Part shown: positions 14,575 through 28,723 of the stretch, piece after piece | How the letters are laid out: the number at the start of each line of letters is the position of its first letter | How positions within the stretch are numbered: position 1 is the stretch's first letter | Assembly (NCBI GenBank): GCA_020723105.1 | Contig: DYJL01000008.1 | Coordinates: 10,564 to 74,563 of the forward strand | DNA from: Nitrospira japonica | GTDB taxonomy: Bacteria > Nitrospirota > Thermodesulfovibrionia > UBA6902 | Length of the DNA stretch: 64,000 nt | Direction of reading: 5' to 3' | Notes under the pieces: model-generated | Database searches by the model: none | The model's input: only the letters and a program-made list of their open reading frames with translations | Told to the model about the DNA's origin: nothing | Made by a program: the position numbers and the translations under genes

Positions 14575-15264
14575 TTATTTCCTTTCTGGCCCCCTCGACC
14601 AAGGCGATTTGTCTCTTACCTCAACTACGTTAATAAGATACCCGAAGGGATAGTCCGGCTGATAAAGATGGAATTTATCGAACTCAAAGAGTTTTCTTGA
14701 GGCCAGGAGGAATCTGTAACAGGGGTTGTCTTTCTGAAGTATTTCCACCTTTCCATTTACCTGAAAGCTTATATACTGCATGCCCTGAGGAGTGTGAGAC
14801 ATTCCAACATAGAGAAGACTTGAATAAGGATTCTCCCTGAGATTCTCAAGGGCCTTTCCTTCAAATATCTCAAGTCCGCCAAGGATGGCTGGATCAAAGT
14901 TGTCTGTATTCTGATAAAGCCTATGAACAGCCTCGATCCTCTTGTGAAGGCTTTCACGCCACGGCATGGCCCGTGCTTCTACTATGGCAGCCTCAAATAT
15001 ATCTGTATAATCCTGAAGATATTTCGCCTTTGGAATGAGGCCGATTCCCTTGACTGTCATATTCACAGGGAACGAATCTCCCTGCCGCCATGTTGCCATC
15101 ACAGGAAGATGCGCAGCAAAGTAACGCATGGGCTGGCCTTCTTTCATATCATTGAGAAATTTAATCCTTGATGATACAAGCCACTCAAGGAAATGTGCCG
15201 GAATTGCATTTAATGTTAAACGTGATGGATGAAACTGTTGTTCTTTTTCTTTTAATTTCATCAT
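14575..15264 (-). CDS. Conserved hypothetical protein (last gene of the molybdoenzyme operon)
   Basis: A 229-aa soluble protein with no recognisable motif. AAGGAGGG RBS lies 6 nt upstream of the ATG. It is co-directional with, and 52 nt downstream of, the gamma subunit gene. Confidence 0.5.
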   Translation of the reverse strand: MMKLKEKEQQFHPSRLTLNAIPAHFLEWLVSSRIKFLNDMKEGQPMRYFAAHLPVMATWRQGDSFPVNMTVKGIGLIPKAKYLQDYTDIFEAAIVEARAMPWRESLHKRIEAVHRLYQNTDNFDPAILGGLEIFEGKALENLRENPYSSLLYVGMSHTPQGMQYISFQVNGKVEILQKDNPCYRFLLASRKLFEFDKFHLYQPDYPFGYLINVVEVRDKSPWSRGPERK

Positions 15265-15315
15265 ACCCTCCTTTACCCTACACCCTCTGCCCTACACCCT
15301 TTTATTTTCTACACC
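15265..15315 (-). promoter_or_regulatory. G-rich (GGGTGTAGGG)n tract immediately upstream of start codon, potential G-quadruplex/regulatory element
   Basis: The minus strand reads GGGGATAAGAAGAAAAAGGGGGTAGGGTGTAGAAAATAAAAGGGTGTAGGGCAGAGGGTGTAGGGTAAAGGAGGG-ATG. That gives at least 5 GGG runs with 1-7 nt loops. Confidence 0.4.
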
Positions 15316-16203
15316 CTACCCCCTTTTTCTTCTTATCCCCATAATTATTCCAGCCTCTATCCCCAGTGTGCCTATGAAAGCAAGCACCGGATAAAAATAT
15401 ATAGTCTCTTTCTCCTCTGTCTCAAGGGCAACATAGTACCATGTAGAGACAACCTTTCTACCGCCCCTGTCACCTTCAGAGCCATTCCATACTGCAAGAG
15501 AAAGTGGGGTGACGCTGCCTTCCCTGAAAACAACGTCGAATTTATCCTGAGATGTCAGGGGCCGCTTAAACACAACAAACCATTTCCCGGACTGCCATTT
15601 TCCGTTACCGCTGATGTTTTGGATATCAGCCTTTTCCAGATCAGTTGCGTTTCCAAAGCCCTGAGCGATTATATTTTCAACAGGTGAAATTCTCGCTCTT
15701 GATACAGGATTGCCGACCTCAAGGCCTCCGGCAAATTCATCTGATGTTGCATAGGTACTATGCATGTCATTTGCATTTTGCCATGAAGCTTTCCAGAACC
15801 AGATATTTACAGGATTGTCTTTGTCGCCCATTGCAAAATGCGGTTTGGATGCAGCAGCAGATGAGGGAAATTCCAATGCCACGGCATCAGAGAACTTATC
15901 TACATCTAATGACGAATCTTCTGAGGCATCACTCCACTCAAGCAGAAAGGCCATTTCTTTTGTGTTGTGCAGGGCCCGGACCTTTAAATTTTTTACAGAA
16001 GATTCATAGGTCCTCGGTTTTGCCATAACCTGTGGAGCGAGGGGAATTTCAATGGCAGATGCATTGTTCCAGGCGCTGTTATCAGCTTCAAGGGGCAGAT
16101 CACCCGATACCTTCTTTGCCATGACAACAAGACCCTGGGAATAGGCATCAAAAGACAGGAGGAAAAAACAGAGAAGAGCGAAAATAGTTATCATTGCGAG
16201 CAT
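15316..16203 (-). CDS. Gamma subunit of type II DMSO-reductase-family enzyme (EbdC/NxrC-like, haem b), membrane-anchored
   Basis: A start at MLAMITIFALLCFFLLSFDAYSQG gives a signal peptide. The longer ORF extending to 16431 consists of REP repeats. The EB_dh-like domain and a C-terminal TM helix (FYPVLAFIGTLGIEAGIIMGI) are present. It is adjacent to the beta subunit. Confidence 0.65.
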   Translation of the reverse strand: MLAMITIFALLCFFLLSFDAYSQGLVVMAKKVSGDLPLEADNSAWNNASAIEIPLAPQVMAKPRTYESSVKNLKVRALHNTKEMAFLLEWSDASEDSSLDVDKFSDAVALEFPSSAAASKPHFAMGDKDNPVNIWFWKASWQNANDMHSTYATSDEFAGGLEVGNPVSRARISPVENIIAQGFGNATDLEKADIQNISGNGKWQSGKWFVVFKRPLTSQDKFDVVFREGSVTPLSLAVWNGSEGDRGGRKVVSTWYYVALETEEKETIYFYPVLAFIGTLGIEAGIIMGIRRKRG

Positions 16204-16210
16204 AGTGTGC

Positions 16211-16301
16211 TGTCCGTAACAGTTCTTTACACTGTCATTGCGAGGGACGAAGTCCCGAAGCAATCTCACTACGAGATTCCTCGCTTCGCTCGGAATGACA
16301 A
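16211..16301. repeat. REP/MITE-like palindromic element, family A (inverted pair of GTCATTGCGAG...GAAGCAATCTC units)
   Basis: The sequence is CTGTCCGTAACAGTTCTTTACAC-TGTCATTGCGAGGGACGAAGTCCCGAAGCAATCTC-ACTAC-GAGATTCCTCGCTTCGCTCGGAATGACA. It lies in the beta-gamma intergenic spacer. Confidence 0.65.
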
Positions 16302-16345
16302 AGCTGTAAAGATATTTAGCTGACAGGACAATAGGAAAGCAATCT

Positions 16346-16396
16346 TTCTTTTGACTACGAGATTGCTTCACACCCTTTGGGTGTTCGCAATGACAT
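16346..16396. repeat. REP family A single unit (reverse orientation)
   Basis: GAGATTGCTTCACACCCTTTGGGTGTTCGCAATGACA has an internal palindrome CACCC(T/A)AAGGGTG. Confidence 0.55.
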
Positions 16397-16440
16397 CTGA
16401 ACTTGTCTTCATAAATTTGAAATTTTCTCATTATCCCCTC

Positions 16441-17637
16441 CTATGTTATGTTATGCCTGTAGACTTGCAGTTTTTCATCATGGAAGGGCCTGATAAAGAC
16501 AGGCTCTTTTAAGGGCACCTTTACCAACTCTTTACCCTTTTCACCATAACCAGTAACAATGCCCTTTGATACCCTGAATTTTGCGGACCAGAACTCTGTT
16601 GAACCAAATAGCGTCAGAGCCCCCAGCAGGGTTTCATCTTTATGGGCATTTTTGTATGCCGCGACCGCATTCGCAGCATCCGGCCCGAACATCTGTATCA
16701 GATAAGGAAGTGGAACATGTATAGGCGGAATATAATATATATTAGGCTCCAGGCCAAGCTGCGGGTAGAGGGGTAACGCAATCTTCTTGATGTGAACCAG
16801 ATAGTCCACAGGATTTGCAGGGTCCGGCTTATCAGGGGTATGCAGCCAGCCATTAAGTCGTATCCTTCCGATGCAGGTTGTCACACACTGAGTCTGGTGT
16901 CCCTGTTCTGCAAGCGGATAGCAACCAATACATTTTTCAGCTATCTTTGTCGTGTTATTGAAAAGAACTTTTTTATAGGGACAGGCCCTTACGCATTCTC
17001 TGTAGCCTCTGCACCTTTTCTGATCCACAAGGACTATGCCGTCTTCCTCTCTCTTATAGATAGCCTTTCTCGGACAGGCTCCCACACAGGCTGGATATGT
17101 GCAATGGTTGCAAATGCGGGCGAGATAGAAATGCCATACCTTATGAGGCATTGTTATAAAATCACCCTTATCTATTGAGCCAGATGGTTCGTCTTCACCG
17201 ATGTTTGGATGGGCCCAGTCAATTTCCTCAGGGATATAGCCCTGAGCCACCTGCCCCTTTGGTGCAGCCTCAAATATTGTATTGCCTTTATAAACTTTCC
17301 CTTCCCATTTTTGAGGGCCCAGTAAATCCAGTATCTTCACGTCCCACGCCAGCGGATAAAACCCATACGGCTTTGACTCAACATTGTTCCAGAACATATA
17401 CTCCTGCCCCTTGCCCGTGGTCCATGTGTGTTTGCATGCCATGGTGCAGGTCTGGCAGGCAATGCACTTGTTGATGTCGAATACCGCGGCAAACTGTTTC
17501 TGCGGCCTTACTTCTTCGTATGGATAATACATCTCCCTCTGAATCTGCCAGTTCTTTACTTTATTTTTAGCCATTAATCCCTTACCTCCGTAGATTGCTT
17601 CGTCATCCCGAAGAATCGGAATTCCTCGCAATGACAA
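16441..17637 (-). CDS. Beta (Fe-S) subunit of Nar/Nxr-type oxidoreductase (NarH/NxrB-like)
   Basis: CIACQTCTMACKHTWTTGKGQEYMFWNNVESKPYGFYP matches the NarH N-terminus. Further ferredoxin motifs are CNHCTYPACVGACP and CRGYRECVRACP, plus CIGC...C. Confidence 0.9.
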   Translation of the reverse strand: MSLRGIPILRDDEAIYGGKGLMAKNKVKNWQIQREMYYPYEEVRPQKQFAAVFDINKCIACQTCTMACKHTWTTGKGQEYMFWNNVESKPYGFYPLAWDVKILDLLGPQKWEGKVYKGNTIFEAAPKGQVAQGYIPEEIDWAHPNIGEDEPSGSIDKGDFITMPHKVWHFYLARICNHCTYPACVGACPRKAIYKREEDGIVLVDQKRCRGYRECVRACPYKKVLFNNTTKIAEKCIGCYPLAEQGHQTQCVTTCIGRIRLNGWLHTPDKPDPANPVDYLVHIKKIALPLYPQLGLEPNIYYIPPIHVPLPYLIQMFGPDAANAVAAYKNAHKDETLLGALTLFGSTEFWSAKFRVSKGIVTGYGEKGKELVKVPLKEPVFIRPFHDEKLQVYRHNIT

Positions 17638-17671
17638 TCATGTTATATGTCATTGCGAGCGAAGCAATCTC
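17591..17671. repeat. REP family A inverted pair in alpha-beta intergenic spacer
   Basis: The sequence is GTAGATTGCTTCGTCATCCCGAAGAATCGGAATTCCTCGCAATGACA-ATCATGTTATATG-TCATTGCGAGCGAAGCAATCTC. Confidence 0.6.
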
Positions 17672-17688
17672 AATTTGAAATTTTAAAT

Positions 17689-20600
17689 TTAAATTACGTA
17701 TCCTCCAATCAGATACTTCTTCATTGCCTCATTTTCATAAGTCGGGCGGTAACCAAGTGAAGCAGGCCTCCAGAGGCCTTTACCCCCGATTCCTCCTTCT
17801 TCTGCCTTTGTGATTTTTACAAAGGCCTCTCTTGGAGCCCCTACAGGACAGTGAATGTCAGGGGCGAAGCCTTTGCCGATCAGTTGCCCAAAGGTCTCTT
17901 TTCTTATCATTGTATCTGTCATTAATGTAGGACCCAGCCAGGCGCGGGTGCAGCTCTGATGACCGCCGTAGCGGAACATGGCCTGATAGTTTGTTTCCCT
18001 GTTTTTTGCAAGTCCGTCAGGATTGCTTTCATGCGCCTTTACTGTGCCGTGGCTGGCCTGATATAAATTGAACCACATAAGCAACACGCCCCGCGGTATG
18101 CCTGCATAATACCTGGCCCGGCACATCATACGGCTTACTTTATAATCTTCATCACCCTTCTTCCATCCTCTGTACGGCCTGTCTTCGGGATCCGCATCTA
18201 TCCAGATATAGTCTCCGTCGTTTATATTCAAATCTCTTGCATCTTTTGGGTTGATATTTACATACGCCTCGCCAACCCAGGGCATTCTCTTGTCGTGCCT
18301 CTTCAGATCCCCGAACGGTCCAAAATATACAGATATGACGTCAATATCAATGGGCGTTGTATGAGCGCCGTGCCTGTATTTTGGGGTGATGAACTGAAAG
18401 GTCATGCCGTCTTTTACCCTGGGATGTCTGGTCTTCTTAAGTTCAGCCCATGTTTTTACAATATTTCTTACCTGCCGAACTTCAACAGAGAGGTCGTCTC
18501 TCTTAAGTCCGTATGTTTCAGGAGATGAGGGCTTAAGATAATCCAGTTGTTTACTCACAATTACATTCGGCTCATAGAAGGTTGCATCAATAGGCTCTCG
18601 ATAAACAGGCAGGTTCTCGCCATGCTCAATGAACTCAGGCTCTTCCCTGTAAAACTCAAGCCTTCCTGTCTTTGTATACCATGGTTTGCTTTCCTGATGC
18701 TGTTCCCACCCTGGAACCTTTGGATAGGTCCTGAAAAGCACAAGCGCAGGTATGCCTTCCTTTGCTTTGTTCTCAAGTTCCTCTATCTTATATCCCCTGA
18801 GAGAGGTGCTTGCATTGATTATTCTCTGTAAGTAAACCTCTACTTTTTTCTCGTAAACGAATTTCCAGTAATCCTCAAATCTCTTTTCTCCTGTAAGCGC
18901 TGCAAGCTGTTTTGCAACGCCCGCCATTGTTTCTATGTCCGCAACGGTATCATGTATTCTTTTAAGCGGGGTCCTTGGATATACGAGCGCAAAGGGATTG
19001 GTAACAGATGCCGTCAAATCCGGATATTTAAATTCGGCCCATGAGTCCACCCCGAACACTATATCAGCATACTCACAGGAAAGCGTCCACCACCATTCAT
19101 TAACTATTACAGTCTCCATTTTCGGGAGCGTATTGTGCATTACATCATAAAACCATTTGGCATTTCCAATCAGGGAATTACTGTTGACGACCCAGAGCAG
19201 TTTCGTAGGTGTTGGTGTATGTGTCCTGCCTGTAAATAATTTATTTCCTACTCTTAAGGGCCTGTCGCCGTAGTTGTAGTAATGGGCTGATTCAAATTTA
19301 AAATACCCCTTTGGCTTTATGGGCTTTGCAGGGTCCATTTCCGGATTAAACGGGTCCTCCATAAGATACTGGGGTGCGCCATTAAATATCGCTATCCTGT
19401 AATTGCCCGCATAACTGCCGGGGCTGCCTCCAAGATTTCCGATATTTCGCGTCATGGCAGATATGAGGTATAAACCTCTGTCTTTCAGAGCGGCGTTAAA
19501 GAACTGGTTGGGCCCCATGCCAACAGCAAAGAGCGTATTACCCTTGTTTTTCGCAATCTGTCTTGCAAGGCTGACAATGGCTTCTTTGGGAGCGCCTGTC
19601 AACTCTGCAGTATTGTCAGGCGTAAACTCCTCCAGATATTCTTTAACAACATCAAAAACCGGTCTCACTTCTATCTCTTTACCGTCAATGGTGCGGACCA
19701 TAAACCTTCCTTCGAGGGCGATGTCTTTCTTCAAATCGCTGAAGTGCTTGCCGACCTGGTCCCTTGAAATAACTGTCGGGGCCTTCTCGTTTTTATCCCA
19801 CATGACAAAATCGCCCCAGTCATTTCTCAATGCTTCGGGCAGATATTGTTCCTTGTGCTGAGGCATTGGCGGAGGGGTCTCTCCCTGCTGCAATACCTTC
19901 ACATAATTGCTCAACTGCACAGGCTTATAGTCAGGTATAATATCGGATGCCTTGAGATATTGAAGGTTGTCAGTTCTCAGGAGCACAGGCAAGTCAGTAA
20001 AGGCTTTCAGATAATCCGGATCATAAAGATTTTCCTTTATGAGAATATGCGCAATGCCCAGAGCCAGCGCCTGATCTGTGCCGGGCCTTATGATGATTAC
20101 TTCGTCAGCTTTGTTAGCAGTGGATTGATATTCAATAGTTATGTCTATAACCTTTATCCCTCTTAGCCGGGCCTCTGTAAGCCAGTGGCTGTCGGGCATC
20201 TTTGTGCTTATCCAGTTCATACCCCAGATGGTAATAAGGTTTGCATTCTCAGTGGCATGAAGCTCAAAGTCTATGGTCTGCTGTCCCGTGACCATCGGAT
20301 GTCCTGGCGGCAAGTCAGTATGCCAGCTATAGTTATCCCAGTACCTGCCGCCAACGGCCTTGTCAGGACCGGCTTTTCTTATATTTTCATCGAGAAGGGC
20401 AAGCATATTTGAGAAACGGCCCATGCCCGCAACCCTTGTTATTCCGAGAAAATGCATGCCTCCCCTGTGTTTGAGAGTCAGGGTGCCGACTCCTTTCATC
20501 CAGTCAATCATTGATTGATCGTAACCCTGAGCCTTAAGATATGCAGCTCCCTTTTCACCGGTATAAGTCCGTGCAATATTTATATACGCCTTTGCTGCAA

Positions 20601-21132
20601 GTCCGTATGCCTCTTCGTATGGCAGTTTAAGCCACTTGTCTTTTCCTCTCTGGAAAAATTTCACATGCGGTTTCCCTGTCTCAGGGTCCCTCGGGAAGCC
20701 CTCCTTAGCCCAGTCGTAAAAACCCTTTCTCACCATGGCGCCCTTGACCCTTCTGTCTCCATAAAATTTCCTTGCAAGTGCCAGTCCCTTCTGGCAGCAC
20801 CTCGGCTCCCATCTGTGAGTCGGCATATTTCCGTAAGGATCTACAGTTTTTCCATATCCATAAGTAGGCATGATTCTCATAATGACGCCATTCTTTACAT
20901 AAGCCCGTAAAAGACAATTATGTGTGTCATTCGGGGCGCAGGTAAAGACAAAGGTATCATCATATTTGAATTTATCCCGGTATAGTTTTTCCCACTCCCG
21001 ATCCGGATATTCTCCCATCGGATTGTCAATACTCACGGGCTGAAGGAATGCAAGCCTTGGAGAGTTTACTGCCAAACCTGCTGCGCCTGCCAGAGACCAT
21101 TTTAAAAAATCCCTCCTGCTGAAGCTTTTCAT
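17689..21132 (-). CDS. Molybdopterin alpha subunit, type II DMSO reductase family (NarG/NxrA-like), TAT-exported
   Basis: 1147 aa. Twin-arginine signal [17 protein letters not shown] is present. An N-terminal Cys/His cluster ([11 protein letters not shown]...CC) fits an FS0-type site. Size and architecture match NarG/NxrA/EbdA-type enzymes. It is followed by the NarH-like beta subunit. Confidence 0.85.
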
Positions 21133-21833
21133 GCGTTAGCCTCCCCTAAACAAAATTGATTTTCTTCTTCTACTTCTTCGATCTTGAAACCAGCCACTTT
21201 TTGCGGCGAAACAGACAGGTATTTACATTCAGCATCAAGCCACTCAATCAGAAACAGGGCGATAGTATGATAAAAGGAGCTTCCATGAAAACTCAGCGCC
21301 TCTGCAAATACGTTTACCCATCTGCCGAGATGGTCCTCTAAAAATTTCTTTTCCGCAGAGATGCAAAGCGCTGCATTTTCATTTTCACTTTTCAGCAGCG
21401 CCTCAGCCTCTTTCATTGTCACGAGATGCATAAACTCAAGTTCTGTTGCAATCTGGTCCGGCCTGTCTTTTATAAAATCCATTCCCCACGCCCTGTAGAA
21501 TCCGGCGATATCAGCCATTTCACCAGTTGAAAATACAGAGGCTGCAGCCCTGTAGTATTCAGTCTCATAAGGAGGACAATTGCTTTTAAGTGTTAAAAAT
21601 CTCACATGCTCATCCACGGCCTGATCTACATTGAAAGCCTGCAGCTTCCTCAGATTTACGACAGGCCCTGCGAGTTCCGTTTCAAGAGGGTATCGTTTCA
21701 GCGCACTCTCTATTTCATTAAAAAATGTCTTGCTCTTCAGGAAATCTGCAAGTTCTTCATCAGGATAAAAAAAACAGTAACTGAGGAGCCGGTACATCTT
21801 TGATCTGTTAAAAGCTGTTTCAGCGTTATTCAT
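21129..21833 (-). CDS. TorD/NarJ/DmsD-family redox enzyme maturation chaperone
   Basis: A 234-aa acidic helical protein lies immediately upstream of the alpha subunit and overlaps it by 4 nt. YETEYYRAA / GFYRAWG-type motifs fit the TorD-like family. Confidence 0.6.
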
Positions 21834-21885
21834 TTAAACCTTCCCTTTCTTAGCAGTTTTTCTACTCCTTACCCTACACCCTGTC
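21834..21885 (-). promoter_or_regulatory. G-rich TAGGG-type tract upstream of chaperone/nxr-like operon start
   Basis: The minus strand reads CGAGGACGTGGGAGTAAGACAGGGTGTAGGGTAAGGAGTAGAAAAACTGCTAAGAAAGGGAAGG. Confidence 0.35.
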
Positions 21886-22614
21886 TTACTCCCACGTCCT
21901 CGGCTTTACACCGGCCTTGTGATATGTATACATGATTACCTTCCACATCTCATCATCTTCCAGTTCCTCGCCCCAGCCCGGCATTGCACTGTTGAACTGC
22001 TTGTCAAATATGCCGCCGTCCCTAACCCTCCAATACACATATGCAAGCGGAAGCTGAGCGATAGTCCCGGGTTCTTTGAAATTGGTTGGCGCAGCAGGAT
22101 ATCTTATGGCATGCGCAACAGGCCCTTTGCCATCAGCCTCTTTCCCATGACAGGGGAGGCAGTTATCTTCATATATAATTCTGCCTTCCTCAATAAGTTT
22201 TGCATCCCATTTGTCAGGGGCTGCAGCCCATTCAGGGACTTTTAAATCTACAACCCATTGAGGAGGTGTTACGTGAGGCTGAAAGAGTTCGCCGGGAGGC
22301 GAGTATGTAACCTTTTCCTTTGAATAGACATTGTATGCAATAAAAACCGGTAGAAGCACCAAGACAGCTACTCTAAGAGTACTCCATATAATGGGAAGTG
22401 AAGACCTGAAAGAGATGAAATCAAGAAATTCCTCAATCCTCTGGTCCTCCAGAGTTATATGGATAATCACCCCAGCTATAACAAACATCATAAAAAAATT
22501 TGTGAGAGTTGAAGGCAGCGGCGGCTCTGCAACAAACCTCATAAGCACATAAGAACCGATGACTATTAATACAGCAAGTACAGCAGAAGGTATGCCTTTG
22601 TTATGATCGCTCAT
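21886..22614 (-). CDS. Membrane-anchored monohaem c-type cytochrome
   Basis: Two N-terminal TM helices precede a single CxxCH motif (CLPCHG). Confidence 0.6.
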   Translation of the reverse strand: MSDHNKGIPSAVLAVLIVIGSYVLMRFVAEPPLPSTLTNFFMMFVIAGVIIHITLEDQRIEEFLDFISFRSSLPIIWSTLRVAVLVLLPVFIAYNVYSKEKVTYSPPGELFQPHVTPPQWVVDLKVPEWAAAPDKWDAKLIEEGRIIYEDNCLPCHGKEADGKGPVAHAIRYPAAPTNFKEPGTIAQLPLAYVYWRVRDGGIFDKQFNSAMPGWGEELEDDEMWKVIMYTYHKAGVKPRTWE

Positions 22615-23036
22615 TCTAATCCTCCACTTTTTATATCCCCTATCTTCACCTTTGGTCTTCCACCAAGGCTTTGCATATACGCAACAACAGCCGTTATCTC
22701 TGCATCGTTGAGATATGCAGGCGCTTTATTTGCTGCAGGCATAACATCGGTGCCGTTATAAAGTATTGCTGCCATTATCTCTGCATCCCTTTCAGCGCCT
22801 ATCCTGGAGAGGTCAGGCCCTCTCAATGTTTCACCTCTGACACTATGACAAACGCCGCAGCCGGCTCGTTTAAAGATATCCCTCCCTGCCTCTGCCAGCT
22901 CTGCTGGTTTCATATCAGGAGTCAGGACTTTTTTCTGAGGGGCTTCCCACGCAGACTGTGGAATGGAATTGCCAAACCAGGCGTAGAGTCCTGTAACTAT
23001 CAGGGCCACAATTATCAGTTTCGTACCTCCACTCAT
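22611..23036 (-). CDS. Membrane-anchored monohaem c-type cytochrome
   Basis: An N-terminal TM (LIIVALIVTGLYAWF) precedes a single CxxCH motif (CGVCHS) with a distal Met-rich region. It overlaps both neighbours by 4 nt. Confidence 0.65.
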   Translation of the reverse strand: MSGGTKLIIVALIVTGLYAWFGNSIPQSAWEAPQKKVLTPDMKPAELAEAGRDIFKRAGCGVCHSVRGETLRGPDLSRIGAERDAEIMAAILYNGTDVMPAANKAPAYLNDAEITAVVAYMQSLGGRPKVKIGDIKSGGLE

Positions 23037-24724
23037 CTTGCACCTCCCTTTTCCGCTCCTGTAAATCTGAATACCAGGCCTATGAGAAAAAGAAATAACA
23101 GAGTTATCCCTGATATGACCAGAGTTGCATTACCCAGGGCCGGAAGCCCTGCATATTTTGACGTATCTTCAAGGACCCCGTAGACATGCCAGTTGAGCCT
23201 TGCTGCTGCACGGCCATATCCAAGAAGGGCCATGGCCCAGACATTAGATACCGCAACTGCAATCAGGGCATATTGAGACCTCGGAGGCATATGTCCCCAC
23301 CGTATCTCGCCAGTCCTCGGAGCGTTTTTTAACAGCAGGCCGTCAAGGAGATATATTAAGCCGATAGCAGGCACCATAAATATGAAGGTGTAGATAGACA
23401 GCCTTATTCTCGTTGTAGAAGGAACCGTGTAACTGTAATAAAGCACCACAAGGTTTACTGCAATGATAAGCAGGATAATAAGCCACTGGATAAATGAATA
23501 AGCCTTTCGGCCTTCGGGAATAATCCGGCCGGCCCGCCTGTTAAGCAGAAATGTAAGGATTACACCAAGGATTGCGATATTTACCGCAGCGATTTTTGGC
23601 GCCATTATGCCAACGGTGCCGAATATCGGATGGGTCCCTCCTGCCATGTCTTCAAGAGAAGCAACCCAGGCTCTTGGGGTAGCCCATACTGCAAAGGCAA
23701 TAATCAGTCCCCAGCTAAGATAGGGAATATATTTTTTATATTTTTCCGAACCGGGGATTCTCTCAAGCCCGAGCCAGAGGTAATAACATATTCCAATAAA
23801 TACTACTGCAATAACTATGGCCTGAAGCAGCCATATCTTGGAAAGCGCCCCGCCCATGAAGGTGATACCCATCTGTGCATTAAACCTGTAAATCTCCATT
23901 CCGAAATAGTATCCGGCAAAGGGAAGGAATATCATTGTGACCACGCCGACAAAGGTGCCGGTATATCCCATCCAGTCATAGTGGGCCTTTTCATTATCTG
24001 TTTCTGCGGAGAGATATTTATATGCAGCATAGGCCGCGCATATGAAACCGCCAAAGGAAACATTGGCAATAAACCTGTGTATGTTTATGGGCCAGAAGGT
24101 CAGATTGAATATCGCATCTTTAAGGCTTACAAACTTGCCTGCGGAATCAACGCCTGCAGGGCTCAGGTGAAAGGACCCCCACATGTTAGCTGTTATCATC
24201 ACAAGGGTTCCAAGTATATTCAGGACCAAACCAAGCAGTATGTGCTGCATCTTTTTTTCGCACTGAAGCTTATCCCATGTAGTCCAGTAAATATAGACTG
24301 CTGTAGACTCGAGAAACACAAGCGCTGCAAAGAGAGCATATGTTGGTTTGAAGGCGACTGTCATGTAATTCATAAATTTCGGGAACAGCGTGCAGCTTAC
24401 AAGAGTGAACAGACCGCCCAGAATAGCTGTAATGGAATAAGAAGGCGGAAGGAGCCTCGCAAAATCCTTTGCAAGCTTATCGAGCTTTTCGTCTTTTTTA
24501 ACATAACCTGCAATTTCAATTATCATGACAAAGACAGGCACAGCCAGTATAAAGGCAGCAAAAAGAAGCATGGTCTGTGCCACAATCCATACTGCATTTC
24601 TGGCGCCGATTACGGGGAATTCTTTGTAGTCAACACCTGCCTGGCCTCCAATATATATACCTGCTGCTGCTATGGCCAAACCAGCCAAGAGAATAAACTG
24701 CTTTTTAATCCAGCCTCCCATCAA
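23033..24724 (-). CDS. Polytopic integral membrane protein (about 13-14 TM), possible cytochrome bd-like/quinol-interacting subunit
   Basis: 563 aa with many hydrophobic helices. It is co-operonic with the cytochromes c and the Nxr-like enzyme. It lacks canonical CydA N-terminal His and Q-loop motifs, so the assignment rests on context only. Confidence 0.4.
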   Translation of the reverse strand: MMGGWIKKQFILLAGLAIAAAGIYIGGQAGVDYKEFPVIGARNAVWIVAQTMLLFAAFILAVPVFVMIIEIAGYVKKDEKLDKLAKDFARLLPPSYSITAILGGLFTLVSCTLFPKFMNYMTVAFKPTYALFAALVFLESTAVYIYWTTWDKLQCEKKMQHILLGLVLNILGTLVMITANMWGSFHLSPAGVDSAGKFVSLKDAIFNLTFWPINIHRFIANVSFGGFICAAYAAYKYLSAETDNEKAHYDWMGYTGTFVGVVTMIFLPFAGYYFGMEIYRFNAQMGITFMGGALSKIWLLQAIVIAVVFIGICYYLWLGLERIPGSEKYKKYIPYLSWGLIIAFAVWATPRAWVASLEDMAGGTHPIFGTVGIMAPKIAAVNIAILGVILTFLLNRRAGRIIPEGRKAYSFIQWLIILLIIAVNLVVLYYSYTVPSTTRIRLSIYTFIFMVPAIGLIYLLDGLLLKNAPRTGEIRWGHMPPRSQYALIAVAVSNVWAMALLGYGRAAARLNWHVYGVLEDTSKYAGLPALGNATLVISGITLLFLFLIGLVFRFTGAEKGGAR

Positions 24725-24761
24725 TTCCTCCTTTTAACAGGCTGCTGAAAAAGTCTGTTAG

Positions 24762-25982
24762 CTATACGCTTTTCTTATTTCCATGTACTCCCAAAGACCC
24801 CTTCAGCTCACCAATCAGTTCAGATGTTATGATTTTGATTCCTCTTTCCTTTGCCTTTGCTTCAATCATTTTTACAATCATGCCTTTCATGAATACCGGA
24901 ATATTTCGCACCCTGTTTTTTGCAGATTCATCCCATTCAAGCTCTGACTGTAACTCAATGTTCAGGCCTACTTTTTCTTTTCCAGAGGGGCTATAAGTGC
25001 ATAACGAATCCTCTCCCATGAAATCACCGGTATCTGAAAGCGCCCTGGCCCTGCAGCCTCCGCATATCTCTGTATATTCACAGATACCGCATCTGCCGTT
25101 ATACATTTCCTGTCTTAACTGCTGCAAAGACGACCCATTTTCCCAAATACTCACTAAAGACCTTTCTTTTATATTTCCCACGACTGCCGGCATATAGGGA
25201 CAGGGAGTTATATTCCCTTCAGGAGTTATCCTCATGTAATGCCTTCCGGCAAGACATCCCCGCGTGCCTTCTGGAATATTGAAATCTTCTTCATAAAGCA
25301 GTCTGTATATATGCGGCGCGCACCTGGCTCTGACCATTACTCTCTTTTCTGAGCGTGACAATTCCACAATTTTTTTCAAGGCTGCTTCATAGTTATAACC
25401 GGATATATTTGTTTTCATAGCCCGGCCCGTGCAGACCAAAAAAAAGAAATTTACTGCCTTGACCGACAAGGCCACGCCTGCCTCTATAACATCTTTAATC
25501 TCATGTACGTTTTCATCAGTCAGGGTCACATCCACCTGTGTTTCAAGGCCCAGTTCTTTTGCGTTTCTGAGCGCACTGACAGACAGCTCCCAGGCGCCGT
25601 CAAGTCCGCGAAATGCATCATGGTATTTGCTGGTTGCAGAATCAATACTTATCCCGACACCTTTTAATCCTGCCTTCTTTAAGGTCTTTAAATTTTTGTA
25701 TGTAAGAAGTGTGCCATTAGACCCCAGGACCGTAATAAAACCTGCTTTTGAAGAATAACCGATGATGTCAACAAGGTCTTTTCTCAGCATTGGTTCCCCT
25801 CCGCTCAGAATAAGCATAAGGCGATTGTTCAGATAAGAGAGTTCGTCTATAACAAATTTTGCCTCTTTTCCTGTAAGTTCAGCCGAAGCCTCTGAGTCAG
25901 CACTGAGATAACAATGAGGGCAGGAAAGGTTGCACCTTTTTGTTATATTCCATGAAACTAAATAAGGCCTGTAATCTTCCAT
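24762..25982 (-). CDS. Radical SAM/SPASM-domain protein with C-terminal PCP_red-like domain
   Basis: The CNLSCPHC radical-SAM motif is present. A downstream Cys cluster (CGICEYTEICGGC) fits SPASM. The C-terminal segment IPVFMKGMIVKMIEAKAKERGIKIITSELI resembles the PCP_red (protochlorophyllide reductase 57 kD) domain. It may be NirJ/AhbCD-like. Confidence 0.75.
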   Translation of the reverse strand: MEDYRPYLVSWNITKRCNLSCPHCYLSADSEASAELTGKEAKFVIDELSYLNNRLMLILSGGEPMLRKDLVDIIGYSSKAGFITVLGSNGTLLTYKNLKTLKKAGLKGVGISIDSATSKYHDAFRGLDGAWELSVSALRNAKELGLETQVDVTLTDENVHEIKDVIEAGVALSVKAVNFFFLVCTGRAMKTNISGYNYEAALKKIVELSRSEKRVMVRARCAPHIYRLLYEEDFNIPEGTRGCLAGRHYMRITPEGNITPCPYMPAVVGNIKERSLVSIWENGSSLQQLRQEMYNGRCGICEYTEICGGCRARALSDTGDFMGEDSLCTYSPSGKEKVGLNIELQSELEWDESAKNRVRNIPVFMKGMIVKMIEAKAKERGIKIITSELIGELKGSLGVHGNKKSV

Positions 25983-26015
25983 CTACCCCTACCCCCTATT
26001 CCCTATGCCCTGTTT
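25983..26015 (-). promoter_or_regulatory. G-rich TAGGG-type tract abutting radical SAM start codon
   Basis: The minus strand reads GTGAAAACAGGGCATAGGGAATAGGGGGTAGGGGTAG-ATG. Confidence 0.35.
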
Positions 26016-27092
26016 TCACAGTTTCCATCCTTTATACTCTTCATGGCTTGCAACATAGACACTGCAGGGAGCAAACCTCACAACGTTTTCTGCAGTGGAA
26101 CCGATATCCATCCCTTCAGTAAAGTGCCTGCCGGTTCTTCCGACAAATATCATGTCTGCGTCTATATCAGAGGCATAATCGCATATCTTTTTGTAAATGT
26201 GACCTTCAAGTACCCGCTTTGTCCGTGGTGAAGAATCAGTCTCGCCAGCAAGCCCCCATCCATTTGTAAGCACAGGATTCACCGTCACAGCACCAAAGAC
26301 CTCCTGCTCTGCCTTATCAAGTATCATATGGCCTACACGTGCAAGCCCTTTATCAATGAATTCATCGTGGATATTCTCCTGCTGTTTCGAATTAAAAGAA
26401 AAGCCTTCCCTGTTGATCAGCGATTCTTTCAATCTCATAAATAGATTCTTGTGCAGTTCTGAATCAAAGCCATAAACAAGATGTATCTGAGCTTCAAATT
26501 TATTGGCTAACAGACGAGCCATTTTCAAGGCGCTGATTGCAGAAGAACTACCGTCCAGACAGACCACGAATTTGGGCTGCTTCAAGGCAACAGGCTTCTT
26601 GAAAATCAGGAAGTTTCTGTCATTACTTCTTAATACCCTTATGCATACGCTCCCTATAAAGCCCTTGCCGTTTCCGTTAAAACCCGAGGACCCAATCAGG
26701 ACCAGATCGCCGCCTTCTTCCTGCAGGATTGAATTGATTGTATTGAAGTTTTTTCCTTCTTTGACTCTGGACCTGTAGCAGATTTCAGCGGCTGAGAAAG
26801 AGTCTTCAACTGGTTTAAGATATGACAGCGATATTTTTTCCATCCCGACATTTATAAGCGTGCTGTGCACATCTCTCTGTTTCTGCAGAATCTCTTCTTT
26901 TTGATAGGCTGCCGGAAGAGTGGGCTCCATAATCCTGAAAGCGCCCTCATGCATGAAGGCGTTGTATGCATGTACCCCGACAACCTCAGAGCCGAAGGCA
27001 CCGGCTAATACAAGCGCTGTTTCAGAGGCCTGAATAGACAGATCGCTATTATCAAAACATAGGATGATCTTTCTAATTGCTTTGTTCATCAT
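26016..27092 (-). CDS. Tandem universal stress protein (2x UspA domain)
   Basis: Two USP-like halves are visible (VVGVHAY...LVLIGSSG and IHLVYGF...MIFVGRTGRHF...GSTAENVVRFAPCSVYV). The start is uncertain: M27, M32 or M33 of the longer ORF are all possible. Confidence 0.7.
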   Translation of the reverse strand: MMNKAIRKIILCFDNSDLSIQASETALVLAGAFGSEVVGVHAYNAFMHEGAFRIMEPTLPAAYQKEEILQKQRDVHSTLINVGMEKISLSYLKPVEDSFSAAEICYRSRVKEGKNFNTINSILQEEGGDLVLIGSSGFNGNGKGFIGSVCIRVLRSNDRNFLIFKKPVALKQPKFVVCLDGSSSAISALKMARLLANKFEAQIHLVYGFDSELHKNLFMRLKESLINREGFSFNSKQQENIHDEFIDKGLARVGHMILDKAEQEVFGAVTVNPVLTNGWGLAGETDSSPRTKRVLEGHIYKKICDYASDIDADMIFVGRTGRHFTEGMDIGSTAENVVRFAPCSVYVASHEEYKGWKL

Positions 27093-27148
27093 AACCTCGT
27101 TATACATGTTGCTTGTAATCCATAAAATTACTCTGTTCCAATATTTAC

Positions 27149-27310
27149 AGACATGGAAGGCTGTCTCAGAATTTCTATACGACACCTTTGAAAAGGGATT
27201 AGGGGATAGGGAGTAGGGGGTAGAAGAAAAGAAATAAGAAAAACAGCTTGAGGCAAAAATGTAATATGCCTTTTGTCGTTTATAGAAATTCTGAGACAGT
27301 CTTCCATGTC
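27149..27310. repeat. Family B palindromic element (162 bp) with 35-bp inverted arms and G-rich core
   Basis: The arms are GACATGGAAGGCTGTCTCAGAATTTCTATACGACA ... TGTCGTTTATAGAAATTCTGAGACAGTCTTCCATGTC. The core contains AGGGATTAGGGGATAGGGAGTAGGGGGTAG. Confidence 0.65.
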
Positions 27311-27447
27311 AGAAAAAGATCTTAAATATCTTTTAAGATGTTTGATTAATAACATAAATATTACCCCTGAGAAAGTATGGCTCAGAAGCAATGAATTTAT
27401 AATTGCCTGAGCTTTTGATGAAATGATAATTTAAAAAAGAGTGGAAG

Positions 27448-28722: not shown

Positions 28723-28723
28723 C

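What the first reader, a model, noticed from the sequence alone, without database searches (positions are those of the whole stretch)
14575..25982. Nine-gene minus-strand cluster: periplasmic-type (TAT-exported) NarGH/NxrAB-like molybdoenzyme with EbdC/NxrC-like haem-b gamma subunit, TorD-like chaperone, two membrane-anchored cytochromes c, a bd-like polytopic membrane protein and a radical SAM/SPASM protein
The alpha subunit has a twin-arginine signal and the gamma subunit a Sec-type signal peptide, so the active site faces the periplasm. This is the topology of nitrite oxidoreductases of the Nitrospira/anammox type, and of ethylbenzene, perchlorate and selenate enzymes. It is not the topology of cytoplasmic respiratory NarG. 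The gamma subunit additionally has a C-terminal TM anchor. The juxtaposition with monohaem cytochromes c and a cytochrome-bd-like protein echoes the arrangement reported in Nitrospira and anammox nxr loci, but the substrate cannot be read from sequence. Gene order here is chaperone-A-B-C-unknown.
Basis: partly seen in the sequence, partly recalled or inferred. Interest (0 to 1): 0.6.

Follow-up and report, generated by a model that had tools for sequence, protein, structure and literature searches.

The report
Periplasmic nitrate/nitrite molybdoenzyme with bd-like partner
This is a real, conserved operon for a periplasm-facing nitrate/nitrite oxidoreductase of the Nitrotoga/Hydrogenobaculum/Methanoperedens type, joined to a cytochrome-bd-like membrane module and its cofactor-maturation genes; the kind is already recognised in metagenomes, but it has not been characterised biochemically in this group of organisms.

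Summary
All nine minus-strand genes are present as described. The domain assignments, TAT motif, gamma haem ligands and C-terminal anchor all check out. The alpha subunit sits in the roughly 1147-aa periplasmic NXR/NAR superclade. It matches Kuenenia NxrA (PDB 7B04) over its full length (980 bits), against 195 bits or less for PcrA, EbdA and NarG. It is not in the canonical Nitrospira/Nitrospina/anammox clade (40-44% identity). It belongs to the sister lineage, which holds the Methanoperedens nitrate reductase (59-60% identity). Signature motifs suggest the lineage also holds Nitrotoga NXR and the Hydrogenobaculum enzyme. The closest genomes are Nitrospirota/Thermodesulfovibrionales MAGs, and they keep the same gene order. 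The substrate pair is therefore almost certainly nitrate/nitrite. The direction is not readable from sequence; I favour nitrate reduction.

New details:
- The bd-like protein is an OR-N-type CydA homologue. In this subclade the otherwise conserved His19 haem ligand is Met.
- The "unknown" 229-aa gene encodes a split-barrel flavin/haem-binding fold. Elsewhere it directly follows the NirJ/AhbD-like radical-SAM gene in bd-like clusters that lack any molybdoenzyme. So the rSAM, split-barrel and USP genes belong to the bd-like module.
- Small repeats have inserted in frame into the gamma signal peptide.

The parts
27448..28200 (-). Crp/Fnr-family transcription regulator (cNMP-binding + HTH_Crp_2). 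It has no N-terminal FNR Cys cluster. Probable regulator of the cluster.
   Evidence: Pfam. A homologue lies upstream of the cluster in L002 (57%) and L004 (34%). No FNR box was found.
26016..27185 (-). Tandem universal stress protein (the ORF starts at GTG 27185; the likely true start is ATG 27092). Conserved first gene of the unit.
   Evidence: Pfam Usp, two stretches. Syntenic in L002, L004, L082, L085, L086 and L087. In L084 the homologue is fused to a PCP_red domain.
24762..25982 (-). Radical SAM/SPASM protein of the NirJ/AhbD (haem-tailoring) family with a C-terminal PCP_red domain.
   Evidence: Pfam Radical_SAM, SPASM, PCP_red. Best NCBIfam hits are NirJ2 at 319 bits and AhbD at 297 bits, both below the cut-off of 500. 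Homologues with the same architecture lie in L084, L085, L086 and L087.
23033..24724 (-). Cytochrome-bd-like polytopic membrane protein (OR-N-type CydA homologue, 14 hydrophobic segments, no Q-loop). The His19-equivalent is Met52. E139, H161, H216, H365 and H513 are invariant.
   Evidence: Pfam Cyt_bd_oxida_I. PDB alignments to 9r2g and 5doq. Alignments A4 and the 121-sequence set. TM count. OR-N description in Murali et al..
22611..23036 (-). Monohaem cytochrome c with an N-terminal TM helix and a CcoO/FixO-like N-terminal segment. Its start overlaps the stop of the bd-like gene.
   Evidence: Pfam Cytochrom_C and FixO. CGVCH and 1 TM. It is fused to the C-terminus of the bd-like protein in P0294.
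21886..22614 (-). Monohaem cytochrome c with three N-terminal TM helices (CcoP-like C-terminal domain). Its start overlaps the stop of the previous gene.
   Evidence: Pfam Cytochrome_CBB3. CLPCH and 3 TM. Homologues at 41-42% identity in L084 and L085.
21129..21833 (-). TorD/NarJ-type (type II DMSO reductase delta) assembly chaperone. Its stop overlaps the alpha start.
   Evidence: Pfam Nitrate_red_del. NCBIfam DMSO_red_II_cha at 64 bits, below cut-off.
17689..21132 (-). Catalytic alpha subunit, 1147 aa, with TAT signal SRRDFLK. The FS0 motif is C65-x2-N68-D69-x3-C73 (3Cys/Asp type). The Mo ligand is Asp273, in WHTD.
   Evidence: Key residues are taken from Kuenenia NXR (PMC8387239). Phylogeny.
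16441..17574 (-). Beta subunit (NarH/NxrB type), 377 aa from ATG 17574. Four Cys groups fit 3x[4Fe-4S] + 1x[3Fe-4S].
   Evidence: NCBIfam DMSO_red_II_bet at 262 bits. Cys pattern. Gene length 377 aa in L001, L002 and L004.
15316..16431 (-). Gamma subunit (EbdC/NxrC-type haem b protein). The Met and Lys haem ligands are conserved and there is a C-terminal TM anchor. The N-terminal signal region is expanded by two in-frame repeat insertions (16190-16394).
   Evidence: Pfam EB_dh. Alignment to 7b04_C and 2ivf_C. Alignment A2. Repeats.
14575..15264 (-). Cytoplasmic 229-aa protein of a family without annotation. It has a PNPOx-like split beta-barrel (flavin/haem-binding fold) plus an N-terminal extension of about 100 aa. 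H51 and H198 are invariant.

Best explanation
The cluster encodes a membrane-attached, periplasm-facing Mo-bisMGD nitrate/nitrite oxidoreductase.

Assembly and electron path:
- NxrA/NarG-like alpha is folded with the TorD-like chaperone and exported by Tat together with beta.
- The EbdC-type haem-b gamma is exported separately and held in the membrane by its C-terminal helix.
- The enzyme is wired to a second membrane module: an OR-N-type cytochrome-bd-like protein plus two membrane-anchored monohaem cytochromes c that resemble CcoO and CcoP.
- Electrons pass Mo <-> FS0-FS4 <-> gamma haem b <-> cytochromes c <-> bd-like protein <-> quinone pool. A Rieske/cyt b complex may substitute, as encoded next to the cluster in L004.

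Direction: in this Thermodesulfovibrionia-like Nitrospirota organism I consider nitrate reduction to nitrite, with quinol-derived electrons, the more likely physiological direction.

Accessory genes: the USP, the NirJ/AhbD-like radical-SAM protein and the split-barrel protein are accessory or maturation genes of the bd-like module. They probably make or deliver a haem-type cofactor.

Basis of each step:
- Shown: gene content, motifs, lineage, synteny.
- Inferred from homologues: the substrate pair.
- Inference only: direction, the docking of gamma to the bd-like module, and the role of the rSAM/split-barrel pair.
For: Identity of the enzyme:
- Full-length match to Kuenenia NxrA 7B04_B (E 1e-293), with gamma best matching 7B04_C.
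- The Mo-ligand Asp, substrate Asn, 3Cys/Asp FS0 and Met/Lys haem ligands are all conserved.
- TAT motif present.

Lineage:
- In the NJ tree the roughly 1147-aa superclade has 100% bootstrap support. The window-type clade, including Methanoperedens L018, has 87%. It is separate from Kuenenia+P0368, which has 100%.
- Over about 105 N-terminal residues read from the published alignment, the window is 60% identical to Nitrotoga and 57% to Hydrogenobaculum, against 46-47% to Nitrospira, Nitrospina and Kuenenia.
- This sister lineage contains a characterised periplasmic NAR (Hydrogenobacter) and Nitrotoga NXR (PMC6050957). Methanoperedens uses its homologue for nitrate-dependent methane oxidation (PMC4683180, PMC7327174).

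Direction:
- The closest hosts are Thermodesulfovibrionales, Magnetoovum and Thermodesulfobacteriota MAGs.
- The bd-like protein of exactly this subclade has Met instead of the His19 haem ligand (49 of 49 sequences at 65% identity or more, against His in 71 of 71 more distant ones). This argues against it being the O2-reducing terminal oxidase needed for aerobic nitrite oxidation.
- L004 has a Rieske/cyt b/multihaem c set directly upstream, as in archaeal pNar systems.

Module coupling:
- Start/stop overlaps link bd-like, c141 and c242.
- In P0294 the bd-like protein is fused to a c141 homologue.
- OR-N2 operons typically carry cytochromes c and an EbdC homologue.
- In L086 and L087 the place of NxrABC is taken by a dihaem-c-EB_dh fusion protein.

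Maturation genes: rSAM-PCP_red, USP and the split-barrel gene are contiguous in L086 and L087, in clusters without any molybdoenzyme.
Against: - No expression or activity data exist for this clade.
- NXR/NAR enzymes of this family are reversible (Kuenenia NXR does both).
- The accessory set (bd-like protein, cytochromes c) is the one conserved in nitrite oxidisers and anammox bacteria, which is the context of nitrite oxidation.
- A relative (L082) has a cbb3 oxidase 8 kb away, so microaerobic life is possible.
- The window gives no nitrite reductase or other marker of nitrate respiration.
- The gamma signal peptide carries two repeat insertions in this genome, so export of gamma might be impaired.
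- The tree is NJ without full-length sequences of Nitrospira, Nitrospina or Nitrotoga. Placement with Nitrotoga rests on a machine-read alignment of about 105 residues.
Confidence: 0.55

Rival explanations
1. The enzyme works as a nitrite oxidoreductase. Nitrite is oxidised in the periplasm and the electrons go through gamma and the two cytochromes c to the bd-like protein. That protein acts either as a high-affinity O2 reductase (microaerobic nitrite oxidation) or as an entry point to the quinone pool for reverse electron flow, as proposed for anammox bacteria.
For: - The same accessory gene set surrounds canonical-type NxrA in L084 and L085.
- That set is the one conserved in Nitrospira, Nitrospina and Kuenenia (PMC3578206).
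- OR-N proteins are proposed cytochrome-c-dependent O2 reductases.
- The sister lineage includes the genuine nitrite oxidiser Nitrotoga.
- A periplasmic active site is energetically favourable for nitrite oxidation.
- L082 encodes a cbb3 oxidase nearby.
Against: - The host lineage is known for anaerobic sulfur and nitrate metabolism.
- The His19 ligand of the putative O2-reducing haem is replaced by Met in this subclade only.
- Methanoperedens and Hydrogenobacter use enzymes of this lineage as nitrate reductases.
- No carbon-fixation or nitrifier markers are seen in the 64 kb window.
Confidence: 0.25
2. The molybdoenzyme acts on another substrate (chlorate/perchlorate, selenate, or a hydrocarbon or sulfur compound), as do other type II DMSO reductases with EbdC-type gamma subunits.
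For: - All NCBIfam equivalog models score below their cut-offs. The best is only the generic subfamily TIGR03479.
- The conserved Asp and Asn are shared with other type II enzymes, so they do not fix the substrate.
- Many homologues occur in phyla with no known nitrate/nitrite phenotype.
Against: - PcrA, EbdA and NarG score five-fold or more lower than Kuenenia NxrA.
- Every member of the roughly 1147-aa superclade that has physiological or biochemical data uses nitrite/nitrate.
- The clade is separated with 100% bootstrap support from the other type II representatives.
Confidence: 0.08
3. In this particular genome the cluster is decaying. Repeat insertions at the alpha/beta and beta/gamma junctions, and inside the gamma signal peptide, impair expression or export, so the complex is not made in functional form.
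For: - Six of the ten copies of the GTCATTSCGARC repeat in the window lie in these two junctions.
- The gamma n-region is 76 aa, against about 10-15 aa in L002 and L004.
- No Shine-Dalgarno sequence precedes the internal Met77.
Against: - Both insertions keep the reading frame with no stop codon. One is shared with a 94%-identical relative (P0005).
- All other genes are intact and all catalytic residues are conserved.
- The original start codon has a strong Shine-Dalgarno sequence.
Confidence: 0.07

Closest known systems
Kuenenia stuttgartiensis NXR-ABC (PDB 7B04), standing for the canonical Nitrospira/Nitrospina/anammox periplasmic NXR
   Same: - Alpha length (1147 vs 1148 aa), with a full-length alignment.
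- TAT export.
- Mo-ligand Asp, substrate Asn, and FS0 with 3Cys/Asp.
- Beta with four Fe-S clusters.
- EbdC-type gamma with Met/Lys haem b ligation.
- Genomic association with a TorD-like chaperone, cytochromes c and a 14-TM bd-like protein.
   Different: - Only 43-44% identity in alpha.
- Separate clade in the NJ tree.
- Different signature motifs: [16 protein letters not shown] and [10 protein letters not shown], against SPNDTHACRIRAF, QNYDHQ and WHGDQAPGHP.
- Beta is 377 aa, against about 425 aa.
- Gamma has a C-terminal membrane anchor.
- No NXR-T or tubule context.
- The chaperone precedes alpha.
Nitrotoga NXR, the Hydrogenobacter/Hydrogenobaculum periplasmic NAR, and the Methanoperedens NarGH(J)-Orf7 enzyme: the sister lineage of canonical NXR
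   Same: - Same lineage by tree position: Methanoperedens L018 is 59-60% identical.
- Same lineage by motifs: 57-60% identity to the Nitrotoga and Hydrogenobaculum rows over about 105 residues.
- TAT alpha.
- EbdC-type gamma.
- Delta chaperone.
- Substrate pair nitrate/nitrite.
   Different: - Those loci are A-B-C-D (Nitrotoga) or A-B-D-C (Methanoperedens L018), and the descriptions read do not mention a bd-like protein, a rSAM or a split-barrel gene in them.
- Methanoperedens instead adds NapH-like and HCO-II-like genes.
- Here the chaperone is upstream, and the enzyme is embedded in an OR-N bd-like module.
OR-N family (OR-N1/OR-N2) of the cytochrome bd superfamily (Murali et al. 2021); the "bd-like oxidase" of Nitrospira, Nitrospina and Kuenenia
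   Same: - 14 predicted TM segments.
- No Q-loop or quinol site.
- The His186 equivalent is conserved (H216), as is a Glu at 139, the E99 or E107 equivalent (the offsets favour E107).
- The operon carries cytochromes c and an EbdC homologue.
   Different: - The His19-equivalent axial ligand is Met in this subclade. His19 was reported as conserved in the OR-N reference sequences tabulated by Murali et al..
- The subfamily (N1 or N2) could not be assigned without the authors' HMMs.
NirJ / AhbC / AhbD radical-SAM haem-tailoring enzymes
   Same: - CxxxCxxC radical-SAM core plus SPASM domain.
- Best NCBIfam hits are NirJ2 and AhbD, over the full model length.
   Different: - Scores (319 and 297 bits) are well below the equivalog cut-offs (500).
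- There is an extra C-terminal PCP_red domain.
- The gene is linked to bd-like clusters and to a split-barrel protein, not to other ahb or nir biosynthesis genes.

Membership tests
Type II DMSO reductase family (alpha-beta-gamma + delta) | Mo-bisMGD alpha with an Asp Mo ligand and an N-terminal FS0 cluster motif | tested here: met
   D273 (in WHTD) and C65/N68/D69/C73 are invariant in alignment A1 with Kuenenia NxrA. TIGR03479 is the best NCBIfam hit, though at 292 bits it is below the cut-off of 985.
Type II DMSO reductase family (alpha-beta-gamma + delta) | Four-cluster Fe-S beta, EbdC-type haem b gamma, TorD/NarJ-type chaperone | tested here: met
   Beta has 15 Cys in groups of 4+4+3+4. Gamma has EB_dh with conserved Met and Lys ligands. 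The chaperone matches PF02613.
Periplasmic NXR/NAR superclade (about 1147-aa alpha) | Twin-arginine signal on alpha; no NarI; exported gamma | tested here: met
   SRRDFLK motif with a PF10518 hit. No NarI-like gene is present. Gamma has a hydrophobic signal segment and an AYSQG/LVV site shared with L002 and L004. Export itself is not testable here.
Periplasmic NXR/NAR superclade (about 1147-aa alpha) | Phylogenetic grouping with NxrA of periplasmic type rather than with NarG, PcrA or EbdA | tested here: met
   980 bits to 7B04_B, against 195, 132 and 130 bits to PcrA, EbdA and NarG. NJ bootstrap 100%.
Canonical NXR clade (Nitrospira/Nitrospina/anammox) | Placement inside that clade, with its signature motifs | tested here: not met
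   43-44% identity to Kuenenia and 40% to P0368, L084 and L085. Separate clades. Motifs differ.
Nitrotoga/Hydrogenobaculum/Methanoperedens-type lineage | Placement with these enzymes | tested here: inconclusive
   Grouping with Methanoperedens L018 is shown (87% bootstrap for the clade). The link to Nitrotoga and Hydrogenobaculum rests on about 105 residues read from a machine-read published alignment (60% and 57% identity, against 46-47% to canonical NXR). It also rests on published trees.
Cytoplasmic respiratory NarGHI | narG equivalog score, NarI gamma, no functional export signal | tested here: not met
   TIGR01580 scores 151 bits against a cut-off of 1084. Gamma is EbdC-type. The TAT motif is canonical.
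OR-N family of the cytochrome bd superfamily | CydA fold without the Q-loop; 10-14 TM; operon with cytochromes c and an EbdC homologue | tested here: met
   PF01654 hit spanning residues 45-552. 14 hydrophobic segments. Context matches the published description.
OR-N family of the cytochrome bd superfamily | Conserved His19 (E. coli numbering) ligand of the active-site haem | tested here: not met
   Met52 aligns with His21 of Geobacillus CydA and with the His of 9r2g. The residue is M in all 49 homologues at 65% identity or more, and H in all 71 at 55% or less.
AhbD / NirJ equivalogs | Score above the curated NCBIfam cut-off | tested here: not met
   NirJ2 scores 319 and AhbD 297 bits against cut-offs of 500. 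The protein is in the broader family, but its function is not assigned.
PNPOx-like split-barrel flavin/haem-binding proteins | Split beta-barrel fold | tested here: met

The most novel reading that the evidence does not exclude
NxrABC of this subclade does not act as a free-standing enzyme. It plugs, through its membrane-anchored EbdC-type gamma subunit, into an OR-N bd-like/cytochrome c complex, in the position that a dihaem-c-EB_dh subunit occupies in molybdoenzyme-free versions of that complex. That complex has been re-purposed from O2 reduction (the His19 ligand changed to Met). It depends on a dedicated NirJ/AhbD-like radical-SAM enzyme plus a split-barrel protein to make or insert a non-standard haem. 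The result would be a new type of quinol:nitrate (or nitrite:quinone) respiratory supercomplex in anaerobic Nitrospirota.
Probability: 0.2. Interest if true: 0.65.

Novelty: new member of a known kind. Interest (0 to 1): 0.4.

Why it matters
Enzymes of this superclade make or consume much of the nitrate in nature, yet only one structure (anammox NXR) and very few activities are known. Metagenome surveys routinely label such genes "nxr" or "nar" at will.

This locus shows three things:
- Thermodesulfovibrionia-type Nitrospirota carry the sister-lineage enzyme.
- The whole accessory set (bd-like protein, two cytochromes c, rSAM, USP) is shared with canonical nxr loci.
- The bd-like partner has lost the His ligand expected for an oxygen reductase.

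This gives concrete, testable hypotheses about how periplasmic NXR/NAR enzymes connect to the quinone pool. That question has been open since the Nitrospira and Nitrospina genomes. The locus also points to the rSAM plus split-barrel pair as candidate maturation factors of OR-N proteins.

Tried and rejected
- **Organism identification.** Exact-sequence look-ups gave no name. The GTDB scan did not return the window's own genome, so the host is inferred from nearest relatives only (83% identity to Nitrospiraceae/Nitrospirota MAGs).
- **Reference sequences.** No full-length Nitrospira, Nitrospina or Nitrotoga NxrA could be fetched. Cluster look-ups of the 50%-identity representatives gave only MAG names. 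I used the machine-read alignment in the supplement of PMC8387239. Only the first two of its blocks were used (about 105 residues); the blocks from Kuenenia position 268 onwards are corrupted by row duplication.
- **Structure of the 229-aa protein.** Single-sequence AF2 failed (pLDDT 39). It worked with a 61-sequence alignment.
- **afdb50 fold library.** Unavailable.
- **Regulatory signals.** An FNR-box search found nothing near the cluster. Promoter and terminator scans were not above shuffles. Rfam and tRNA scans of the window were empty, so there is no Moco riboswitch.
- **Genomic island idea.** GC is only mildly higher than the flanks, and similar to the neighbouring FDH gene. I rejected this as unsupported.
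- **The unknown gene as an NXR-T analogue.** Rejected. It has no signal peptide, no haem c motif and a different fold, and it co-occurs with the rSAM gene rather than with NXR.

Full report
**1. What is in the sequence**

Window 14575-25982 holds nine co-oriented minus-strand ORFs. In order of transcription they are:
- a radical-SAM/SPASM protein with a C-terminal PCP_red domain (24762-25982);
- a CydA-like polytopic membrane protein (23033-24724);
- a 141-aa cytochrome c (22611-23036; one CGVCH, one N-terminal TM);
- a 242-aa cytochrome c (21886-22614; one CLPCH, three TM);
- a TorD/NarJ-type chaperone (21129-21833);
- a 1147-aa molybdopterin subunit with the twin-arginine motif SRRDFLK (17689-21132);
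- a four-cluster Fe-S subunit (16441-17637);
- an EB_dh-domain subunit (15316-16431);
- a 229-aa protein without a family (14575-15264).

Start and stop codons overlap at the bd-like/c141, c141/c242 and chaperone/alpha junctions. The beta subunit has 15 cysteines in groups of 4+4+3+4, the pattern for three [4Fe-4S] clusters and one [3Fe-4S] cluster. Upstream on the same strand lie a tandem-USP gene (26016-27185) and a Crp-family regulator (27448-28200).

**2. Corrections to the gene models**

The alpha/beta and beta/gamma spacers contain small REP/MITE-like repeats with the core GTCATTSCGARC. The window has 10 copies against 0.55 expected, and six of them lie at these two junctions.

One repeat creates a spurious TTG extension of beta. 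The real start is probably ATG 17574, giving 377 aa as in L001, L002 and L004.

In gamma, the start codon with a strong Shine-Dalgarno sequence lies 10 nt after the beta stop, at the same place as in relatives. It is followed by two in-frame repeat insertions. The positively charged n-region of the signal peptide is therefore 76 residues long, instead of about 10-15. One insertion is shared with a 94%-identical relative (P0005); the second, 43 codons long, is unique to the window. The hydrophobic core, the AYSQG/LVV site, the haem ligands and the C-terminal anchor (aa 346-364, then RRKRG) are intact.

**3. Identity of the molybdoenzyme**

The alpha subunit aligns over its whole length with Kuenenia stuttgartiensis NxrA (PDB 7B04_B; E 1e-293, 980 bits). 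The next solved relatives score far lower: PcrA 195 bits, EbdA 132 bits and E. coli NarG 130 bits. Gamma best matches 7B04_C.

The residues singled out in the Kuenenia structure paper (PMC8387239) are all conserved:
- the Mo ligand Asp275 corresponds to D273 here;
- the substrate-positioning Asn70 corresponds to N68;
- the unusual 3Cys/Asp FS0 site (Asp71) corresponds to D69, with C65 and C73;
- the Met/Lys ligands of the gamma haem b are also present.

All NCBIfam equivalog models (narG, ebdA and others) score far below their cut-offs.

**4. Lineage**

More than 120 clusters (at 90% identity) are 62-84% identical to the alpha subunit. The named ones come from MAGs of Thermodesulfobacteriota, Thermodesulfovibrionales, Magnetoovum, Bipolaricaulota and Chloroflexota.

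In species-representative genomes the best hits are a Nitrospiraceae MAG and a Nitrospirota MAG (83%) and a Thermodesulfovibrionales MAG (70%). Below these, at 56-69%, come Acidobacteriota, Chloroflexota, Planctomycetota, Omnitrophota and others, and Ca. Methanoperedens at 59%.

Identity to Kuenenia NxrA is only 43-44%. An NJ tree (Kimura distances, 100 bootstraps, 1136 columns) gives:
- 100% support for the roughly 1147-aa superclade;
- 100% for Kuenenia + P0368, which I take to represent the canonical clade (P0368 is itself unnamed);
- 87% for a separate clade holding the window, all the genome loci (including Methanoperedens) and P0366.

A pNar-type group (Halorussus, Thermincola) is the next outgroup.

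I could not fetch full-length Nitrospira or Nitrotoga sequences. In the machine-read alignment supplied with PMC8387239, the window shares [11 protein letters not shown][ST]YGYG, SHRWEPR, DRRxKGAMVR and WHTDL[PA]PGHP with one or both of the Nitrotoga and Hydrogenobaculum rows. It does not share the canonical SPNDTHACRIRAF, QNYDHQ and WHGDQ motifs. Over about 105 residues the window is 60% and 57% identical to Nitrotoga and Hydrogenobaculum, against 46-47% to Nitrospira, Nitrospina and Kuenenia.

This is the "sister clade" described by Kitzinger et al. It contains Nitrotoga NXR and the characterised periplasmic NAR of Hydrogenobacter thermophilus (PMC6050957). Published trees also place the Methanoperedens and Thermogutta nitrate reductases in the larger clade with the NXRs (PMC10732223; PMC7327174). 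That NxrA-type genes are frequent in Thermodesulfovibrionia has been noted before (PMC11033732).

**5. Synteny**

The complete order is USP, rSAM, bd-like, c141, c242, chaperone, A, B, C, 229-aa gene.
- It recurs in L002 (Nitrospiraceae MAG) and L004 (Thermodesulfovibrionales), and, apart from the rSAM gene, in L082 (Thermodesulfovibrionales Kow0025).
- In L082 it is followed by FmdE-like, molybdate-transporter, MoeA and MoaA genes, and then a cbb3 oxidase.
- Most other phyla have only A-B-C-chaperone.
- In L004, a Crp regulator, a Rieske protein, a cytochrome b and a multihaem cytochrome c lie directly upstream.

Contig lengths show that at least eight Met-type bd-like proteins lie on contigs of the same length as those carrying window-type alphas. 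These come from Nitrospirota, Magnetoovum and Thermodesulfobacteriota.

**6. The bd-like module**

The 563-aa protein has 14 hydrophobic segments. It aligns with solved CydA subunits only over the first four to five helices. [quoted passage not shown] Lücker et al. described the same 14-TM bd-like protein as part of the gene set shared by Kuenenia, Nitrospira and Nitrospina.

The residue aligned with the haem ligand His19 (E. coli numbering; His21 in Geobacillus) is Met52.
- Among 121 homologues, all 49 that cover this position and are 65% or more identical to the window protein have Met (one further close homologue has a gap there).
- All 71 at 55% identity or less have His.
- E139, H161, H216 (the His186 equivalent), H365 and H513 are invariant in all of them.

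P0294 (Syntrophomonadaceae MAG) is a natural fusion of the bd-like protein with a c141 homologue. c141 has a CcoO/FixO-like N-terminal segment, and c242 has a CcoP-like domain. The three genes therefore encode one complex, built like a cbb3 oxidase in which CcoN is replaced by the bd-like protein.

**7. The rSAM, the "unknown" protein and the USP**

The rSAM scores best against NirJ2 (319 bits) and AhbD (297 bits), the haem-tailoring enzymes, but below their cut-offs of 500.

The 229-aa protein belongs to a family of at least 307 proteins; those that carry a name are called "hypothetical". With a 61-sequence alignment, AF2 gives a confident model (pLDDT 85, pTM 0.82). About 120 of its residues form a PNPOx-like split barrel:
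- Foldseek top hits include the haem-bound PaiB and NohD.

In L086 and L087 this gene directly follows the rSAM-PCP_red gene, with overlapping stop and start in L087. Those clusters read: bd-like (His type), cyt c, cyt c, dihaem-c-EB_dh fusion, USP, rSAM, 229-family gene. They contain no molybdoenzyme.

In L084 (Burkholderiales MAG) and L085 (Chloroflexi MAG), the bd-like protein, two cytochromes c, chaperone, gamma, rSAM-PCP_red and USP surround an alpha that is 60-64% identical to Kuenenia NxrA.

Hence the USP, rSAM and split-barrel genes travel with the bd-like module. NxrABC(+D) is one of at least two alternative partners of that module. The other partner is a cytochrome c-EB_dh fusion resembling the "alternative NxrC" proteins of Nitrospina.

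**8. How it most likely works**

Shown:
- a Tat-dependent periplasmic alpha-beta unit with all catalytic and cluster ligands;
- an exported, C-terminally anchored haem-b gamma;
- a co-encoded membrane complex of a bd-like protein and two anchored cytochromes c.

Inferred by phylogenetic bracketing: the substrate pair is nitrate/nitrite. Every member of the superclade with functional data uses it, in one direction or both.

Inferred from the EB_dh-fusion clusters and Murali's operon description: gamma is the docking and electron-transfer interface to the bd-like/cytochrome c complex.

Direction. I favour nitrate reduction, at roughly 0.5-0.6 among the readings that take the cluster as an active nitrate/nitrite enzyme, for four reasons:
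- the hosts are Thermodesulfovibrionia-type organisms;
- two of the three functionally documented members of the sister lineage (Hydrogenobacter and Methanoperedens, but not Nitrotoga) are nitrate reductases;
- the His-to-Met change argues against O2 reduction by the partner complex;
- L004 has a Rieske/cyt b set upstream, as archaeal pNar systems do.

Nitrite oxidation remains a serious rival. The accessory set is the one conserved in nitrite oxidisers and anammox bacteria, and these enzymes are reversible.

The rSAM plus split-barrel pair probably makes or delivers a tetrapyrrole cofactor for the bd-like complex, or the split barrel is the flavin reductant of the rSAM. This is inference from fold and gene linkage only.

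**9. Novelty and score**

The enzyme class, its occurrence in Thermodesulfovibrionia, and the link between NXR and bd-like/OR-N proteins are all in the literature. I therefore file this as a new member of a known kind.

I did not find the following described in the papers read:
- the clade-specific His19-to-Met change;
- the assignment of the rSAM, split-barrel and USP genes to the OR-N module;
- the repeat-expanded gamma signal peptide.

Interest is 0.4. The locus is useful for the open question of how periplasmic NXR/NAR enzymes couple to the quinone pool, but it is not surprising in kind.

Noticed in passing
window 11864-14557 (+), stop at 12920-12922: A NuoG-fused formate dehydrogenase alpha is split into two ORFs by an in-frame TGA within HCART-U-HAPTV. 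A hairpin (GUAGCC-GGUCU-GGCUGC) follows 14 nt downstream, positioned much as I recall the E. coli fdhF SECIS (from memory, not checked). This is almost certainly a selenocysteine codon, not a pseudogene. The fold energy of the hairpin is not better than shuffles.
   Followed up: partly
window 28249-29962 (+), compared with 11864-14557 (+): NuoE- and NuoF-like genes, the usual partners of NAD-dependent FDH, lie on the far side of the 13.7-kb nxr-like cluster from the fdhA gene. The cluster therefore sits between parts of what is often one FDH operon. The GC profile gives no clear sign of recent insertion.
   Followed up: partly
window 16190-16394, 17624-17660, 30017-30092, 33012-33023, 42975-42986: A family of small REP/MITE-like repeats with the core GTCATTSCGARC has 10 copies against 0.55 expected. 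Two of the copies are inserted in frame in the signal-peptide region of the gamma gene. Others create a spurious N-terminal extension of the beta ORF.
   Followed up: partly
window 27144-27316: A 36-nt inverted repeat (92% complementary, arms 101 nt apart) lies between the Crp-like gene and the USP gene. It folds to -58.7 kcal/mol (z = -9.2). It could be a regulatory structure or a MITE; this is not resolved.
   Followed up: partly
window 25987-26005 (-), 27200-27218 (+), 15314-15325 (-), 34704-34722 (-): G-rich TAGGGRRWAGGG motifs occur 9 times against 1.8 expected. They lie just upstream of the rSAM gene, in inverted orientation upstream of the USP gene, and at the gamma/229-aa junction. Their function is unknown.
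   Followed up: no
L004 743-3781: In the Thermodesulfovibrionales relative, a Crp regulator, a Rieske protein, a fused cytochrome b (petB+petD) and a multihaem cytochrome c lie directly upstream of the USP-rSAM-bd-like-NXR cluster, on the same strand.
   Followed up: partly
L086 2370-10651; L087 2628-10663: These bd-like (His-type) clusters have two cytochromes c, a dihaem-cytochrome-c-EB_dh fusion protein with a C-terminal TM, USP, rSAM-PCP_red and the 229-aa-family gene, but no molybdoenzyme. L087 is also surrounded by NosL, SCO1/SenC and thioredoxin-like (copper-handling) genes.
   Followed up: partly
L003 10001-15326: A Nitrospirota MAG has an alpha 83% identical to the window's in a different arrangement: A-B-chaperone. 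No gamma, bd-like or cytochrome c homologues were detected within the flanks, so it may be a second, stripped-down locus type in close relatives.
   Followed up: no
P0371 (representative protein, 1104 aa): This is a divergent member of the superclade (38% identity). The FS0 motif reads CADPEGHGC, and I could not find the WHTD Mo-ligand Asp motif by eye (not checked in an alignment). It may be a non-catalytic paralogue.
   Followed up: no
window 37321-39619 (-): ResB/CcsA-type (system II) cytochrome c biogenesis genes lie about 12 kb from the cluster. This fits the need to mature the two cytochromes c.
   Followed up: no
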